Source: Escherichia phage vB_EcoS_HASG4
Direction: 5' to 3' (one strand)
Length of the DNA stretch: 64,000 nt
Sequence record: NC_100331.1
Part shown: positions 18,346-24,275 of the stretch, one piece after another
Position numbering within the stretch: position 1 is the first letter of the stretch
Layout: the number at the start of each line of letters is the position of its first letter
Position numbers and translations under genes: made by a program
Notes under the pieces: model-generated
Told to the model about the DNA's origin: nothing
What the model saw: only the letters and a program-made list of their open reading frames with translations
Database searches by the model: none

Positions 18346-18663
18346 TTAATCCTCTGGATTATCATCCAGGAAATTTTTAATGGCTTCGTGCATGGTTTCT
18401 TTACGAAGCTGACGTCCAATCAAAATATGATTAGCTTCTACTCGACCATTAGGTAATCGATCCGCCAGAACTACTACAGGAACTTGGCGTACACCAAATT
18501 TCTGCATTAATTCTGTATTATCAGTCTCTTTATGGATTTCCAAATTATAGTCATTGACTACTTTATCAAATACTGGTTCGAAAAGTTTACACGGGTTACA
18601 AGTGGAACCTTTTAATAGATAGACTAATTTAGACATTTTTATTTCCTTTGCTGGCAAACTCAC
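18346..18663 (-). CDS. thioredoxin/glutaredoxin-like protein
   Basis: 105 aa; CNPC redox motif near N-terminus. Confidence 0.6.
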   Translation of the reverse strand: MSLPAKEIKMSKLVYLLKGSTCNPCKLFEPVFDKVVNDYNLEIHKETDNTELMQKFGVRQVPVVVLADRLPNGRVEANHILIGRQLRKETMHEAIKNFLDDNPED

Positions 18664-19135
18664 CGTGGAGTTCTTCTAGTTTTTCATCTCTCCATGCAAT
18701 TGCTTCTTCCAAAGAACTGCACGTTTTCATATAATTGATTCCTGCCCTAGAGATTTTTACTCTAAAAGACTTCCCTCTTTGAGATATATTTTTTAATCCC
18801 AATAGGTTATTTTTATTAGCCGATTTCCTATTAAAAGCATTTTGAGCTTTTGTAGCTTCTCTTAAGTTACCAATACGATTGTTTAGCGTATTGGTATCAT
18901 CATGATCTACTATATCAGGTAAATAGCCTTTGTGCATAAAGAAGATTGCTCTATGCGCAAGTATTCGTTCTCCATCAATAGAGAGCATTAGATAGCCATC
19001 AGCATTAATAGACCCAGCAGGCATATTGTTAAGGCTAGTATTCCAACCTCTTGTACCTTCCGGTCTAGGTTTCCAGGTTAGAGTACCATCTTCGTGGTAC
19101 TCTAGTACCTCTAATAATCTCTCCCTAGTAATCAC
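18629..19135 (-). CDS. HNH homing endonuclease with AP2-like domain
   Basis: 168 aa; HNH-type histidine/asparagine motif and AP2-like C-terminus. Confidence 0.7.
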   Translation of the reverse strand: MITRERLLEVLEYHEDGTLTWKPRPEGTRGWNTSLNNMPAGSINADGYLMLSIDGERILAHRAIFFMHKGYLPDIVDHDDTNTLNNRIGNLREATKAQNAFNRKSANKNNLLGLKNISQRGKSFRVKISRAGINYMKTCSSLEEAIAWRDEKLEELHGEFASKGNKNV

Positions 19136-20129: not shown

Positions 20130-20543
20130 TTAAACTAGTTCGACATGACCGCCATCATAGGTACCACGTTTTATTTCATCGTGATAGTCTCCCGAAGCAT
20201 TCCAATCAGCACCAAAACGAAGTTTAATGCCTAGCTCTTTACCAGCTTGTTCAAAAGCCTTTTTAACTGCCCAAAATGCTTCTAAGTCATTCCAATCAAT
20301 TTTGCCATTAATATATGGAGCAAAATCAATAGCATCCCCAGTAATATGTTTGCTTTTACTAGGATCTTTTAGAAATGAAGTACCATTAGCAATATTCTGG
20401 GCACTTTGTGCTACTGTACGAATACCTTGCACGATTGTGAAATCATACGGAGATAGTTCTAAAGCCCTACGAGCTACTTTTTGTAGTTCGGGCTTAACGG
20501 TAGCTAATTGTTTTTCGCTATTTTTACCAAATTTAAAACTCAT
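20130..20543 (-). CDS. endolysin, M15 zinc peptidase (L-alanyl-D-glutamate peptidase type)
   Basis: 137 aa; H..D..H zinc motif (SKHITGDAID, DGGHVE); size matches T5 endolysin. Confidence 0.8.
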   Translation of the reverse strand: MSFKFGKNSEKQLATVKPELQKVARRALELSPYDFTIVQGIRTVAQSAQNIANGTSFLKDPSKSKHITGDAIDFAPYINGKIDWNDLEAFWAVKKAFEQAGKELGIKLRFGADWNASGDYHDEIKRGTYDGGHVELV

Positions 20544-21196
20544 ATTGACCTACCTAAAGACCTCTGTTGTGGGGAACAGAGCTTTGCTAAATATTCCTTG
20601 AACTGTTCAGAATCAGCTGTATCTACTGGATTATCTTTCCAAGCAATACCAATGTACCCAGCATAGATATTTTTTAGATTGAAGTATGGACAAGTGTATA
20701 TGTAATTAAAAGTAACGTTTTTAAACGCAGGTATATTTAACCCCATATATTTATTTACTCTTACACTTAAATCCGATGCGTAGTTAAAGCCCTCTAAATG
20801 ACGTCTGTATAATTCAGACGTTTTATTTACCGCTTTATCGGCCAAGTCAGCCCTATCTAATTGCGCATTACTTTCCCATGCAATAATATTGGAATAATCA
20901 TTGATAGCATCTGGTTTATACTTGACTACAAAAACAGCATCTGCACCCGTCTGAGAGAAGAGAACCATGCTCTTTTCCCTCGCCACATTAGGGAAGTTAT
21001 CTATCCTCTGGGTTTGTAAATCCTGTAAAACTGCAGACGTGGAAAAAGTCTTTAAGAATGACATCACTTCACTAGTATTACTAACAAATAAGAAAATAAT
21101 GACAGCAACTAAGATAGTTAGCAGACGTTTAAGAAGCGATGCTGGGTCTTTCGCTTCTTGGAGCAGTACTGTTAATAATTGTAAGAACTTTTCCAA
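20540..21196 (-). CDS. holin candidate
   Basis: ORF 20540-21250 trimmed to TTG after GAGGAGG RBS (218 aa); TM segment; immediately upstream of endolysin. Confidence 0.6.
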   Translation of the reverse strand: MEKFLQLLTVLLQEAKDPASLLKRLLTILVAVIIFLFVSNTSEVMSFLKTFSTSAVLQDLQTQRIDNFPNVAREKSMVLFSQTGADAVFVVKYKPDAINDYSNIIAWESNAQLDRADLADKAVNKTSELYRRHLEGFNYASDLSVRVNKYMGLNIPAFKNVTFNYIYTCPYFNLKNIYAGYIGIAWKDNPVDTADSEQFKEYLAKLCSPQQRSLGRSI

Positions 21197-21352
21197 TTTG
21201 TAACCTCCTCTAACCAGTACCATTATACTAATTTTGGAGGAAAATTTCAATGGGTTTTTAAATGTTACACTTGGAGCACAAAATTATGTCGTTGTCAAGA
21301 AGAATTTTAGATAAAAGAAAAGCCAGGGTACTTAACCCTGGCTTAAAATTAC

Positions 21353-21952
21353 TTACTCTTCGTTGTGCTCCTCGGATTGAGGTAACTGAGCTTTATTATA
21401 TTGCTCAGATCGATATTTTGCCAAGATTTCAATACGCTTATGAATTTCCTTGCTATCTAGATAGATATTTTTGTTGTCTTTTACCATCTCGTCGATTTCA
21501 TCTATTGAGAAGAACGGATAGTAGACATCTAGCATCATATCTTCTACGAACTTGTTGTAAGATTCATAGGCTTTCTTGATTTCTTGACCTTTCTCACAGA
21601 ACCCACCAGAGAACGTGTGTCCCATTAGCGTAGCATGTGGATGTACTACCCATCCATGACAAGATAGGAAAATTGTGCAGTAAGCAGAAGCACTAGGACC
21701 AATCAGGTGTCCTATAACTGTTCCACGGCAATTAGCAATTAAGTTAGATAACTGTGCGGCAGTATCAACATAACCACCAGGGCCATTAATCATCAGATTA
21801 ATTTCGTCGTCCTCATTTGCCTGCATAAGTACCATTGATAGATCACGGTATTCATCCGGTGGACCGAGTTCTTCATCAAAGAAAAAGGTATACTCGTTAG
21901 ATTGGCGAATGGAGTGGAACAGGTTAGTCTTTTCTTCTTTTTTATTAGTCAT
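21353..21952 (-). CDS. ClpP-like serine protease
   Basis: 199 aa; INGPGG and GPSASA motifs resembling ClpP. Confidence 0.6.
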   Translation of the reverse strand: MTNKKEEKTNLFHSIRQSNEYTFFFDEELGPPDEYRDLSMVLMQANEDDEINLMINGPGGYVDTAAQLSNLIANCRGTVIGHLIGPSASAYCTIFLSCHGWVVHPHATLMGHTFSGGFCEKGQEIKKAYESYNKFVEDMMLDVYYPFFSIDEIDEMVKDNKNIYLDSKEIHKRIEILAKYRSEQYNKAQLPQSEEHNEE

Positions 21953-21964
21953 AGCGATCCTTGA

Positions 21965-22717
21965 TTATCCAACTAGTGGTTCTAGCTCTAAGTCACAGAA
22001 GTTATACACTTCTAGTTTAAGGTTATTGATACCATCGAATTTATTAACTAATTCGTGAGTAATATATTTTGCAGGAATACCACTTTCAGATGGATGATCT
22101 GATTTAATAGTGAACTTCTGCTCAGCGGGCACTACATTTATTAGTAAAGAATCCATATCTAAATGGTTTGTTTCTCTGAGTAACTCTCCTTCATTGGGGA
22201 ATCTCACATCTGTTATTACGGCGACATCTGGGTCGTCTTTAGCGATGGATTGCTCCAGAATTATGAGCCAAATGCGTTCATGTACCAGCTGCCTTCCTAG
22301 CTCTGTTCCTACGAGCTGTAACATTTTTCTCGGAGAAATAAATAAACTATAAAGTCCGTCTTCTTTATTCTCTGAGATAAGTTGTTGAGGATTAAGATAT
22401 TTTCCCTCAAAAATCGGCCAAACGTACGAGAAGTCTTCAAACTTATCGATACCGTATTTAAACCATACGTCTCTAGCTCGCTCCAATTGAGATTGTGTGA
22501 CCGTAAACCATTGGTCAATCTCTTTCCCCCTGCGCTCTCCTAGAAACTCTGGAGTTACACCGAGGATTACAGATGCAAGTTCATAAACGGGCTTGGCAAA
22601 ACTGTAACGACGTGGTAAACACGTTGGATACGTGTCGTTACACCAATCGATAATTAATTTTGCAACGGTATCTTTTCCCGAACCAGCTTCACCATGCAGA
22701 CCTACTAATACTGACAT
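21965..22717 (-). CDS. deoxynucleoside monophosphate kinase
   Basis: 250 aa; P-loop GEAGSGKDT at N-terminus. Confidence 0.7.
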   Translation of the reverse strand: MSVLVGLHGEAGSGKDTVAKLIIDWCNDTYPTCLPRRYSFAKPVYELASVILGVTPEFLGERRGKEIDQWFTVTQSQLERARDVWFKYGIDKFEDFSYVWPIFEGKYLNPQQLISENKEDGLYSLFISPRKMLQLVGTELGRQLVHERIWLIILEQSIAKDDPDVAVITDVRFPNEGELLRETNHLDMDSLLINVVPAEQKFTIKSDHPSESGIPAKYITHELVNKFDGINNLKLEVYNFCDLELEPLVG

Positions 22718-23070
22718 TAATCTTTCCTATTGTTAATGGGTGGATAGTAAACTAAGCAACGTTTTTCTTGTAAATCTTGGCGATAGAAGCAAACCATACT
22801 AGTCAGTCGTGAGATATATGAATATTCTGCCTCGCGGCATTTTGCTAACATATTCCAATCTTTATATGGTACAACAACTACTACGCCATCTTCGCCATTT
22901 GTAGCTAATTTCTTTTCGAACTTAAAGTCAAAGCTACAAGGTTGAAGCCCTTTAGGCCAATCTACGTGGGCTGTTGGTAGCTCATGTGTAGGTTCTGGCT
23001 TTATTTCTTGTGCACAGCCTGTGATTGTGATTGCGGCTGCGAGCAGTATTCCAAGTTTCCAGTTAAACAT
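22717..23070 (-). CDS. lipoprotein (o-spanin-like)
   Basis: 117 aa; signal peptide with lipobox ITGC; start embedded in upstream gene. Confidence 0.55.
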   Translation of the reverse strand: MFNWKLGILLAAAITITGCAQEIKPEPTHELPTAHVDWPKGLQPCSFDFKFEKKLATNGEDGVVVVVPYKDWNMLAKCREAEYSYISRLTSMVCFYRQDLQEKRCLVYYPPINNRKD

Positions 23071-23444
23071 GCTAATCTTTCCTCGAACTCCTTACTCTGC
23101 TTTTTAGCAATTAATGTAACCAATCCAGGCTTTGCAGCTATAATATCTTGACGACTAAGAGCTTTATCAAGCTGGGAGATCTTCTTATCAAGATCTTGTT
23201 GGGAAATATTATGGAAAGTGAAATATTGATTCATACGTGTTTCACGTTGTTCACTTTCAACTTTAATCTTGTTTAAGGAAGTTTCTAGAGTAGAGATCTT
23301 TTTAGTAGCTACTGCAAGATCACCTGATAGAGTCTCAACCTTATTAACTAAGTGATAAGCACCGAATCCGATGCCTATCGCTAGACCTGCTCCCAGGATA
23401 TACCATTTACCTTGCCATAGAGAACTAATAAAGTTTTTTATCAT
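23001..23444 (-). CDS. i-spanin-like membrane protein
   Basis: 147 aa; N-terminal TM then coiled-coil; overlaps lipoprotein gene by 70 nt out of frame. Confidence 0.55.
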   Translation of the reverse strand: MIKNFISSLWQGKWYILGAGLAIGIGFGAYHLVNKVETLSGDLAVATKKISTLETSLNKIKVESEQRETRMNQYFTFHNISQQDLDKKISQLDKALSRQDIIAAKPGLVTLIAKKQSKEFEERLACLTGNLEYCSQPQSQSQAVHKK

Positions 23445-24121
23445 CTTTTCATATTCCTGAATGACGTAACCGTATCAAATCCATGTGCTGCTAGGCGGTC
23501 TTTATCTGATACAGTAATCATATCAGGCTCACCAGTTCCTAATACACCGAAGATATACTGTTCGAGAACTTGGTGCAAACGGTATAAGTTACTTTCAATT
23601 TCCTGCCACGGAATACCTGATAGGTGTAGACGCGGATTAGTTATAACCTTGAAGTATTTATTGTTATCTTTATCATTTGGAACTAATGAATCTAGAACTA
23701 CTAATGGTACTCTTAGCTCAGATAAGGCTTCTTTAGCTTTCGGGGTAACTTCTTCTTGCCACGATAAGATAGACTCTTTTGGCTTCCCTCTATTTATGTC
23801 TAGCAAAGAAAACCCTGTTGACCACCCATTCTCCTCTAAAATTTCTAACGCCTCGTCCAGGCTGAAGGTTTTTACTTGGGTATCTAGCACGTCAATGTGG
23901 TATAACCAGTAAATCTCTCCGGCTAGGAAGAAAGGCAAAATTTTAAAGTAGCCAATCTTTCCCTCAATACGAGCAATCCTACGTTCTTGCATGATCATAT
24001 AGTTGCCATCATCTGGGGCTTTTATTGTTAGCTCTTCAGTTTTACGTTCCCAAACACGATCTGCATCGAATAAACTGTTCTGCAAATCATACACATCTGC
24101 AAATTTAGAAATGATTCTCAT
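23441..24121 (-). CDS. hypothetical protein
   Basis: 226 aa; promoter cassette upstream. Confidence 0.55.
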   Translation of the reverse strand: MRIISKFADVYDLQNSLFDADRVWERKTEELTIKAPDDGNYMIMQERRIARIEGKIGYFKILPFFLAGEIYWLYHIDVLDTQVKTFSLDEALEILEENGWSTGFSLLDINRGKPKESILSWQEEVTPKAKEALSELRVPLVVLDSLVPNDKDNNKYFKVITNPRLHLSGIPWQEIESNLYRLHQVLEQYIFGVLGTGEPDMITVSDKDRLAAHGFDTVTSFRNMKR

Positions 24122-24275
24122 ATTTAATCCTCTTGCCTCAATCTATGAATATATTATACAAAAGTTTGGGCATCTATGCAACTAAAATTTTATTACAAAA
24201 ATAGCCCAGTCGCAAAAGTGCAGGCTGGGCTTTGTCATTATTTGCTTTTGCTAGTAAGTTGACTTAGTGTCAATC

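What the first reader, a model, noticed from the sequence alone, without database searches (positions are those of the whole stretch)
21353..21952. ClpP-like protease gene embedded in the lysis/nucleotide-kinase cluster
INGPGG and GPSASA motifs resemble ClpP, but the protein lies in the early region between holin and dNMP kinase rather than in a head-morphogenesis module, so it may act on host proteins or be an inactive homolog.
Basis: partly seen in the sequence, partly recalled or inferred. Interest (0 to 1): 0.4.

Follow-up and report, generated by a model that had tools for sequence, protein, structure and literature searches.

The report
T5 phage's known ClpP-like protease gene
This is the long-annotated "putative Clp protease" gene of T5-like phages: a real, strongly conserved, ClpP-fold protein that is not the head protease, lacks the parts ClpP uses to dock an ATPase, carries Ser-His-Asn instead of Ser-His-Asp, and is dispensable in the laboratory, so its job is still unknown.

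Summary
Window 21353-21952 (-) is a 199-aa ORF, 100% identical to EASG3_00043 "putative Clp protease" of Escherichia phage vB_EcoS_EASG3. It is the ortholog of T5.042/orf12c, annotated since 2004.

It has a ClpP fold: Pfam PF00574 is above threshold, hhalign gives 99.7%, the AF2 model has pLDDT 91, and all top PDB matches are ClpP.

It is not a bona fide ClpP:
- The ClpP equivalog model scores 16.9 bits against a cutoff of 308.6.
- The N-terminal gating loop and helix A are missing.
- The aromatic pocket that docks ClpX/ClpA is not conserved.

The nucleophile Ser89 and His112 are invariant in 181 family representatives. The third triad position is Asp or Glu in 91% of them, but Asn162 in the T5 clade, as in Listeria ClpP1.

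The gene ends an early operon (spanins, dNMP kinase, clp, terminator). This order is kept across Demerecviridae. An HK97-type prohead protease lies about 80 kb away.

dN/dS is 0.02-0.08, and the gene is core in 185 tequintaviruses. Even so, knockdown in T5 gave no fitness defect.

Best reading: an ATPase-independent, cytoplasmic ClpP-fold peptidase with an accessory role and an unknown substrate. The finding is already known and of modest interest.

The parts
21353..21952 (-). ClpP-like protein gene. 199 aa, 22.9 kDa, pI 4.9, no signal peptide or TM segment. It equals EASG3_00043 and is the ortholog of T5.042, T5 orf12c and BF23 ORF45.
21958..21962 (-). Shine-Dalgarno AAGGA, 5 nt before the ATG. 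Only 12 nt separate the dnk stop (TAA, 21965-21967) from this start, so the two genes are read as one transcript.
   Evidence: read directly from the sequence
21773..21790 (-). INGPGG (aa 55-60), equivalent to the ClpP INSPGG motif. N56, P58, G59 and G60 are invariant in the 49-sequence alignment of family members plus canonical ClpPs. G60 aligns with the oxyanion-hole Gly68 of E. coli ClpP.
21683..21700 (-). GPSASA (aa 85-90), equivalent to ClpP GQAASM. Ser89 (codon TCT, nt 21686-21688) aligns with the nucleophile Ser97 of ClpP and is present in 181 of 181 family representatives.
21617..21619 (-). His112 codon (CAC). It aligns with ClpP His122 and is present in 180 of 181 family representatives.
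21467..21469 (-). Asn162 codon (AAT) at the position of the catalytic Asp171 of ClpP. Across the family it is Asp in 147, Glu in 18, Asn in 8 (only the T5-near clade) and Thr in 5.
21320..21344 (-). Rho-independent terminator: a 10-bp stem followed by a T-run, 9 nt after the stop codon. Its position is conserved across Demerecviridae, with different but still complementary stem sequences.
21965..22717 (-). dnk, the deoxynucleoside-5'-monophosphate kinase, immediately upstream in the same transcription unit.
22717..23444 (-). Overlapping o-spanin (22717-23070) and i-spanin (23001-23444) genes further upstream in the same unit.
23441..24121 (-). First gene of the unit, encoding a 226-aa protein of unknown function (ortholog of T5.047). 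A promoter-like site lies at 24187-24215.
20130..21250 (-). Downstream separate unit: a promoter-like site (21222-21250, 11 of 12 matches), holin (20540-21196) and the endolysin L-alanyl-D-glutamate peptidase (20130-20543).

Best explanation
The gene encodes a cytoplasmic, stand-alone serine peptidase with a ClpP fold. It belongs to a phage-specific family (PHROG 1827 and relatives) that branched off from ClpP and ClpP-like phage proteases. It is transcribed as the last gene of an early operon (226-aa protein, spanins, dNMP kinase, clp, terminator).

Shown: the fold; conservation of the nucleophile Ser89, the general base His112 and the oxyanion-hole glycine motif; strong purifying selection; a location outside the head module.

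Inferred: it cleaves peptide bonds with Ser89/His112, with Asn162 orienting the histidine less efficiently than the ancestral Asp. It works without ClpX or ClpA, because the N-terminal gating loops, helix A and the aromatic docking pocket are absent, so the database label 'ATP-dependent' is probably wrong. It has an accessory role that matters only under some conditions, acting on host or phage cytoplasmic proteins or peptides rather than in capsid maturation. The substrate is unknown.
For: Fold and family:
- Pfam PF00574 scores 33.6 bits against a cutoff of 20.2.
- PHROG 1827 matches over the full length at 3e-90.
- hhalign against canonical ClpP gives 99.7%, E 1.4e-25.
- The AF2 model has pLDDT 91.1 and pTM 0.84. 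All top 50 PDB matches are ClpP, with TM about 0.65.

Active site:
- Ser89 is present in 181/181 and His112 in 180/181 family representatives. N56, P58, G59, G60 and G85 are shared with canonical ClpP.

Selection:
- dN/dS is 0.077 against Salmonella phage Sepoy (dS 0.78) and 0.019 against T5.
- It is one of eight core genes at more than 80% identity in 185 Tequintavirus genomes (PMC12639943).

No ATPase coupling:
- The alignment to E. coli ClpP starts at ClpP residue 26. Residues 1-19 are coil in the model.
- Pocket positions Y60, Y62, F82, I90, M92, F112 and L114 become N52, M54, N74, H82, I84, V102 and H104.
- The ClpP equivalog TIGR00493 scores 16.9 bits against 308.6.

Not morphogenetic:
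- An HK97-type prohead protease sits next to the major capsid gene at record 102068-102700.
- The order spanin, DNMK, Clp, then holin and endolysin is kept at 36-39% protein identity.
- Homologs in PaoP5, Barba4A and a metagenomic phage sit among nucleotide-metabolism or replication genes.

Accessory role:
- T5.042 was 'Not Fit' in the CRISPRi-ART genome-wide knockdown, with fitness -4.47 and p 0.90 (PMC11879866 supplementary file 16).
Against: - The third triad residue is Asn in this clade. The only characterised ClpP with Ser-His-Asn, Listeria ClpP1, is an inactive heptamer on its own (PMC9257651).
- No biochemical data exist for any family member in the literature I could search.
- The oligomeric state could not be modelled.
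- The pocket-residue list for ClpP comes from memory of the ClpP-ADEP and ClpX literature, not from a tool.
- The protein was detected, at low abundance, in purified BF23 virions, which the cytoplasmic-accessory picture does not explain.
Confidence: 0.55

Rival explanations
1. It is a regulated or partner-dependent subunit. With Ser-His-Asn it would be inactive alone, like Listeria ClpP1. It would act only after stacking on another ring, possibly a heptamer of host ClpP. That would modulate or hijack host ClpXP/ClpAP, or block it as a pseudo-protease.
For: - Asn162 replaces the catalytic Asp only in the T5-near clade.
- Listeria ClpP1 (Ser98-His123-Asn172) is inactive alone, lacks chaperone docking sites, and is switched on in a ClpP1/ClpP2 hetero-tetradecamer (PMC9257651).
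- The model keeps a long handle helix (residues 123-144), the element ClpP uses for ring-ring contacts.
- The Listeria ClpP1/2 heterocomplex 4ryf is among the top structural matches.
Against: - There is no evidence of any interaction.
- Identity to E. coli ClpP is only about 16-18%, so a matching ring interface is doubtful.
- Relatives with Asp (91% of the family have Asp or Glu) occupy the same genomic slot, so the family function predates the change to Asn.
- There is no special sequence affinity to Listeria ClpP1: 4jcq scores no better than other ClpPs.
Confidence: 0.15
2. It is a second morphogenetic protease that processes a virion component, for example a tail or internal protein, and is carried into particles.
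For: - It was detected in purified BF23 virions with 3 peptides.
- After its own PHROG, the best-scoring families are ClpP-related head maturation proteases: phrog_1684 at 5.6e-21 and NF045542 at 40.2 bits.
Against: - It lies in an early operon about 80 kb from the structural genes, and a dedicated HK97 prohead protease is present.
- NF045542 is far below its cutoff, 40.2 against 120.
- Its intensity in virions is about 25-fold below the prohead protease and among the lowest listed, which is compatible with contamination.
- Knockdown in T5 gave no fitness defect.
- Distant homologs also sit in non-structural regions.
Confidence: 0.1
3. It is a genuine ATP-dependent ClpP proteolytic subunit that pairs with host ClpX or ClpA, as the GenBank annotations state.
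For: - Pfam CLP_protease is above threshold.
Against: - All NCBIfam ClpP models are far below cutoff, for example 16.9 against 308.6 and 23.1 against 249.
- It lacks ClpP residues 1-25, the axial loops and helix A.
- Most docking-pocket aromatics are replaced by polar or small residues.
- The triad Asp is replaced.
Confidence: 0.05
4. It is a decaying, non-functional remnant of a ClpP-type gene.
For: - The triad Asp is lost.
- The gene is dispensable in a laboratory knockdown screen.
Against: - dN/dS is 0.02-0.08.
- The ORF is intact at the same length in more than 430 records.
- It is a core gene in 185 genomes.
- Ser and His are invariant.
- The protein is detected by MS.
Confidence: 0.02

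Closest known systems
ClpP (MEROPS S14; E. coli ClpP, PDB 1TYF)
   Same: - Same alpha/beta ClpP fold.
- INxPGG oxyanion motif.
- GxxxS nucleophile motif, with Ser89 matching Ser97.
- His112 matches His122.
- Handle helix.
- Pfam PF00574 is above threshold.
   Different: - Only 16-23% identity.
- No counterpart of residues 1-25, the axial gating loops and helix A.
- The IGF-loop docking pocket is not conserved.
- Asp171 is replaced by Asn162.
- A longer C-terminal helix (167-189).
- Fails every NCBIfam ClpP model cutoff.
- Encoded by a virulent phage in an early operon.
Listeria monocytogenes ClpP1 (PDB 4JCQ; ClpP1/2 heterocomplex 4RYF)
   Same: - Ser-His-Asn in place of Ser-His-Asp.
- No AAA+ docking sites (PMC9257651).
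- Among the top structural matches.
   Different: - No closer in sequence than other ClpPs, so the change to Asn is independent.
- ClpP1 has a dedicated partner, ClpP2, in the same genome. No second ClpP-like gene was seen next to this one.
ClpP-related phage head maturation proteases (NCBIfam NF045542; PHROG 1684 and 94)
   Same: - Phage-borne, ClpP-derived, and lacking the ClpP N-terminal region.
- They are the best-scoring families after the protein's own PHROG.
   Different: - Below the family cutoff, 40.2 against 120 bits.
- Not adjacent to the portal, scaffold or capsid genes.
- The phage already has an HK97-type prohead protease.
- Knockdown is not deleterious.
PHROG 1827 'ATP-dependent protease', the stand-alone ClpP-like proteins of large virulent phages (Demerecviridae, Pakpunavirus, Barbavirus and others)
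   Same: - Full-length match at 3e-90.
- Same size.
- Same non-structural genomic setting.
   Different: - Most members keep Asp or Glu at the third triad position. The T5-near clade has Asn.
- No member has a demonstrated function.

Membership tests
[quoted passage not shown] | ClpP alpha/beta fold | tested here: met
   The AF2 model has pLDDT 91.1. All top 50 Foldseek PDB hits are ClpP, with E about 1e-9 and TM 0.6-0.66. hhalign gives 99.7%.
[quoted passage not shown] | Pfam PF00574 above the gathering threshold | tested here: met
   33.6 bits against 20.2. The match is partial, covering residues 41-139.
[quoted passage not shown] | Scores as a ClpP equivalog or subfamily member (TIGR00493, PRK00277 and others) | tested here: not met
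   TIGR00493 scores 16.9 against 308.6, NF001368 23.1 against 249, and NF011090 20 against 347.
[quoted passage not shown] | Catalytic Ser and His | tested here: met
   Ser89 aligns with Ser97 and His112 with His122 in phmmer, profile-HMM, MAFFT and hhalign alignments. Both are invariant in the family.
[quoted passage not shown] | Catalytic Asp, the third triad member | tested here: not met
   Asn162 (codon AAT) aligns with Asp171. No conserved alternative acid lies nearby, since positions 159 and 166 vary. Asp or Glu is present in 165 of 181 family representatives outside the T5-near clade. The 3-D geometry could not be measured because no coordinates are accessible.
[quoted passage not shown] | N-terminal axial loops and helix A that gate the pore and couple to the ATPase | tested here: not met
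   hhalign aligns query residues 20-172 to ClpP 26-181. Residues 1-19 are coil with pLDDT about 61-83.
[quoted passage not shown] | Hydrophobic pocket for the IGF/LGF loops of ClpX/ClpA. The residue list (Y60, Y62, F82, I90, M92, F112, L114) is from memory of the literature. | tested here: not met
   The aligned residues are N52, M54, N74, H82, I84, V102 and H104. This is an alignment-based inference.
[quoted passage not shown] | Tetradecameric barrel of two heptameric rings | not testable with these tools
   Only monomer prediction is available.
ClpP-related head maturation protease (NF045542 / PHROG 1684, 94) | Model score above the family cutoff | tested here: not met
   NF045542 scores 40.2 against 120, and NF045540 32.6 against 475. 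PHROG 1684 gives 5.6e-21, but PHROG 1827 gives 3e-90.
ClpP-related head maturation protease (NF045542 / PHROG 1684, 94) | Gene located in the head module beside the portal, scaffold or major capsid genes | tested here: not met
   The neighbours are dNMP kinase, spanins, holin and endolysin. The HK97 prohead protease and major capsid protein lie at record 100.7-102.7 kb.
PHROG 1827 (phage stand-alone ClpP-like 'ATP-dependent protease') | Full-length match to the family profile | tested here: met
   E 3e-90, 302 bits, residues 1-198 on profile positions 5-201 of 202.
SppA / peptidase S49 (Ser-Lys dyad) and NfeD | Match to the family model | tested here: not met
   No Peptidase_S49 hit at E<=1. 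NfeD1b_N scores 18.7 bits against a cutoff of 40.

The most novel reading that the evidence does not exclude
The T5-clade protein, with its Listeria-ClpP1-like Ser-His-Asn site and no ATPase docking surface, could be inactive alone. It could become active, or act as an inhibitor, by stacking as a heptamer on a ring of the host's own ClpP. The phage would then reprogram or disarm host ClpXP/ClpAP during infection, for example to protect phage proteins or to blunt ClpP-dependent defence and toxin-antitoxin triggers. That would fit a gene that is dispensable on a laboratory K-12 host yet universally conserved.
Probability: 0.07. Interest if true: 0.7.

Novelty: already known. Interest (0 to 1): 0.25.

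Why it matters
The gene is one of very few conserved at more than 80% identity across all tequintaviruses, and it belongs to a family of hundreds of clusters in large virulent phages. [quoted passage not shown]

Three results turn a vague annotation into a short list of testable hypotheses:
- The protein lacks the ATPase-coupling parts.
- The T5 clade carries Ser-His-Asn.
- The gene is non-essential in the laboratory.

The hypotheses are a stand-alone peptidase, a partner-activated subunit, or a modulator of host ClpP. This is useful for annotation and for anyone studying T5 host takeover. It is not a surprise to specialists.

Tried and rejected
- **Other folds or clan SK families.** I looked for a better match to another fold, or to SppA/S49 or NfeD. 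There was none. Pfam S49 is absent, NfeD1b_N is below cutoff, and all top PDB matches are ClpP.
- **An alternative acidic residue.** I looked for one that could complete the triad in the T5 clade. Positions 159 and 166 are not conserved.
- **Links to defence systems.** A PADLOC scan gave no hit.
- **Experimental work on the family.** Literature searches returned only genome-annotation mentions, the BF23 virion proteomics and the CRISPRi-ART screen. The HIDEN-SEQ preprint does not cover this gene.
- **Measuring Ser-His-Asn distances.** The model coordinates are not exposed to the scripting environment.
- **The antisense ORF 21262-21579 (+, 105 aa).** It overlaps the gene, is annotated in none of the records inspected, and I take it to be spurious.
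- **A special relationship to Listeria ClpP1.** I rejected this because ClpP1 scores no better than other ClpPs.

Full report
**Identity of the window and the gene**

The 600-nt stretch 21353-21952 is 100% identical to Escherichia phage vB_EcoS_EASG3 (MK373799, Tequintavirus, Demerecviridae). There it is CDS EASG3_00043, 'putative Clp protease'. Megablast finds the same gene in 435 phage records. It matches T5 at 97.8% identity: T5.042 'putative ATP-dependent Clp protease' in AY543070, and orf12c 'putative Clp-like protease' in AY509815, the 'early C-region fragment'. It also matches BF23 ORF45 'clp'. Window coordinates equal EASG3 record coordinates plus 39.

The ORF is on the minus strand, with an ATG at 21952 and 199 aa. 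AAGGA lies 5 nt upstream of the start, and only 12 nt separate it from the stop of the preceding gene. The predicted protein is 22.93 kDa with pI 4.9 and has no hydrophobic segment. The mass equals the 22.927 kDa listed for the BF23 'Clp protease'.

**Is it ClpP-like?**

Yes, well beyond chance.
- Pfam CLP_protease: E 4.7e-8, 33.6 bits against a gathering cutoff of 20.2.
- PDB sequence search: every hit with E below 0.1 is a ClpP. A 14-sequence profile improves this to E 1.5e-13.
- hhalign of a 181-sequence family alignment against canonical ClpPs: probability 99.7%, E 1.4e-25. Query residues 20-172 align with ClpP residues 26-181. The canonical set included E. coli ClpP, whose sequence I verified as identical to PDB 1TYF.
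- AlphaFold2 model built on a 49-sequence alignment: pLDDT 91.1, pTM 0.84.
- Foldseek against the PDB: only ClpP chains in the top 50, with E about 1e-9, TM 0.6-0.66 and rmsd 2.3-3.3 Å.

**Is it a ClpP?**

No, not in the strict sense.
- Every NCBIfam ClpP model is far below its cutoff. TIGR00493 scores 16.9 against 308.6, and PRK00277 scores 23.1 against 249.
- The protein has no counterpart of ClpP residues 1-25, the axial gating loops and helix A. Residues 1-19 are coil in the model, and the first element is a strand at 20-25.
- The positions that line the IGF-loop/ADEP pocket in E. coli ClpP are Y60, Y62, F82, I90, M92, F112 and L114. That list is from my memory of the literature. They align with N52, M54, N74, H82, I84, V102 and H104.
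- The C-terminal helix is long (167-189).

The protein therefore lacks the features by which ClpP couples to ClpX or ClpA, and the widespread label 'ATP-dependent' is unsupported.

Its own family is PHROG 1827, with a full-length match at 3e-90. The next best families are ClpP-related phage head maturation proteases: phrog_1684 at 5.6e-21, and NF045542 at 40.2 bits against a cutoff of 120. This suggests a phage lineage of ClpP-derived proteins rather than a recent capture of a cellular clpP.

**The triad**

Four independent alignments agree: phmmer, profile HMM, MAFFT with canonical ClpPs and hhalign. Ser89 aligns with Ser97, His112 with His122, and Asn162 with Asp171.

In 181 family sequences, Ser89 is present in 181 and His112 in 180. 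Position 162 is Asp in 147, Glu in 18, Asn in 8 and Thr in 5. The eight Asn sequences are the window protein and its closest cluster representatives, P0001-P0007, at 55-98% identity. These are the Tequintavirus/Epseptimavirus-near clade. Pectobacterium, Klebsiella, Proteus and Vibrio T5-like phages keep Asp. The codon is AAT in EASG3, T5, BF23 and Sepoy. No nearby acidic residue is conserved in the Asn clade.

So the triad is Ser-His-Asn. The one well-studied precedent is Listeria monocytogenes ClpP1 (Ser98, His123, Asn172). It is an inactive heptamer alone, lacks chaperone docking sites, and becomes active in a ClpP1/ClpP2 heterocomplex (PMC9257651). The T5 protein is no closer in sequence to ClpP1 than to other ClpPs, so the substitution is convergent.

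**Is it functional?**

- dN/dS is 0.077 against Salmonella phage Sepoy (85.7% nt identity, dS 0.78) and 0.019 against T5.
- The gene is one of only eight listed as core, at more than 80% blastp identity, in 185 Tequintavirus genomes (PMC12639943).
- The protein was detected by MS in BF23 virion preparations, where the authors state its function is unknown (PMC10644984).
- In the CRISPRi-ART genome-wide knockdown of T5, T5.042 was 'Not Fit', with fitness -4.47 and p 0.90. Knockdown gave no measurable phage defect on the laboratory host (PMC11879866 supplementary file 16).

Strong conservation combined with laboratory dispensability is the usual signature of an accessory, host- or condition-specific function.

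**Context**

On the minus strand the unit reads as follows:
- a promoter-like site at 24187-24215
- a 226-aa protein gene (23441-24121)
- i-spanin (23001-23444)
- o-spanin (22717-23070)
- dnk (21965-22717)
- clp (21353-21952)
- a terminator (21320-21344)

Holin and endolysin follow, with their own promoter at 21222-21250.

The order spanin, DNMK, Clp, then holin and endolysin is kept in T5-like phages whose Clp-like protein is only 36-39% identical, even where the endolysin type differs (CHAP instead of M15). The terminator after clp is also kept in place, with different but still complementary stems.

The phage's real capsid protease is an HK97-family prohead protease next to the HK97-type major capsid gene, at record 102068-102700, about 80 kb away.

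Outside Demerecviridae, homologs sit next to PhoH and Dam (Rheinheimera phage Barba4A). They also sit among tRNAs, dCMP deaminase and ligase (Pseudomonas phage PaoP5), and next to gp32, DnaB and the clamp loader (a metagenomic contig). None of the loci examined lies in a head module.

The family is large. There are 464 representatives at 50% identity with E<=1e-30, and 2385 with E<=1e-10. tblastn finds 1330 phage records.

**Mechanism**

The best-supported reading is an ATPase-independent, cytoplasmic ClpP-fold serine peptidase, made with the early genes, that uses Ser89 and His112 with Asn162 as a weakened third member.
- Shown: the fold, the conserved nucleophile, base and oxyanion motif, selection, the early-operon position, and non-essentiality.
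- Inferred: actual catalysis, independence from ClpX/ClpA, and the accessory role.
- Unknown: the substrate.

The rivals are:
- a partner-activated or host-ClpP-binding subunit, the ClpP1 analogy;
- a second morphogenetic protease, suggested only by the trace in virions and argued against by position and dispensability;
- a true ClpXP/ClpAP subunit, argued against by several failed membership tests;
- a dead relic, argued against by selection.

**Novelty**

The gene and its ClpP-likeness have been in GenBank since 2004 and appear in every T5-like annotation, so the finding as stated is already known. This analysis adds three things: the 'ATP-dependent ClpP subunit' label is probably wrong, the T5 clade has a Ser-His-Asn site, and the family is consistently non-structural. 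I found none of these stated in the papers I could search. They are incremental.

Noticed in passing
window 22532-22535 (within dnk, 21965-22717, minus strand): The 35-nt sequence around the T5 'major DNA single-chain interruption at 18.5%' (GCGC nick consensus, annotated in AY543070 and AY509815) is conserved exactly in this phage. EASG3 probably carries the same major nick about 580 bp upstream of the clp-like gene.
   Followed up: partly
window 21395-21424 (minus strand), inside the 3' end of the clp-like ORF: A strong sigma-70-like site, TTGGCA-18-TATAAT (11 of 12 matches), lies about 50 nt upstream of the terminator. It is kept in BF23, slightly weaker in T5 (TACAAT), and weaker still in Sepoy (TTGGCG...TATAGT). 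It may be a coincidence of the coding sequence (L-A-K-Y-R-S-E-Q-Y-N), or a start for a short RNA or for read-through into the holin unit.
   Followed up: partly
window 23441-24121 (minus strand): The first gene of the same operon encodes a 226-aa protein with no annotation (ortholog of T5.047). It was scored 'Fit' in the T5 CRISPRi-ART screen (fitness -0.14, p 0.0002). It therefore looks important but uncharacterised, and is a better target for follow-up than the clp-like gene.
   Followed up: no
records OR847290.1 ('Listeria phage LM 4-11-1', 3967 bp) and protein P0002 ('Brucella melitensis'): A protein 100% identical to this T5-like protein sits in a 4-kb record labelled as a Listeria phage. 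An 86%-identical one, on a 115-kb contig, is labelled Brucella melitensis. These look like contamination or mislabelled T5-like phage sequence in public databases.
   Followed up: no
window 18629-19135 (minus strand): An HNH homing-endonuclease gene lies between the thioredoxin-like gene and the T5.038 ortholog. T5 instead has an HNH gene (hegF, T5.046) between T5.045 and T5.047, which EASG3 lacks. So homing endonucleases occupy different slots in otherwise collinear genomes.
   Followed up: no
window 21262-21579 (plus strand): A 105-aa antisense ORF overlaps the terminator and the 3' half of the clp-like gene. It is annotated in none of the records inspected and I take it to be spurious.
   Followed up: partly
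family alignment positions 82, 121 and 173 of the window protein: Several residues are family-specific and absent from canonical ClpP: Lys121 (156 of 181), Arg173 (176 of 181), and His82 (75 of 181, replacing the pocket residue Ile90 of ClpP). Their role is unknown. They could mark a family-specific interface or substrate site.
   Followed up: no
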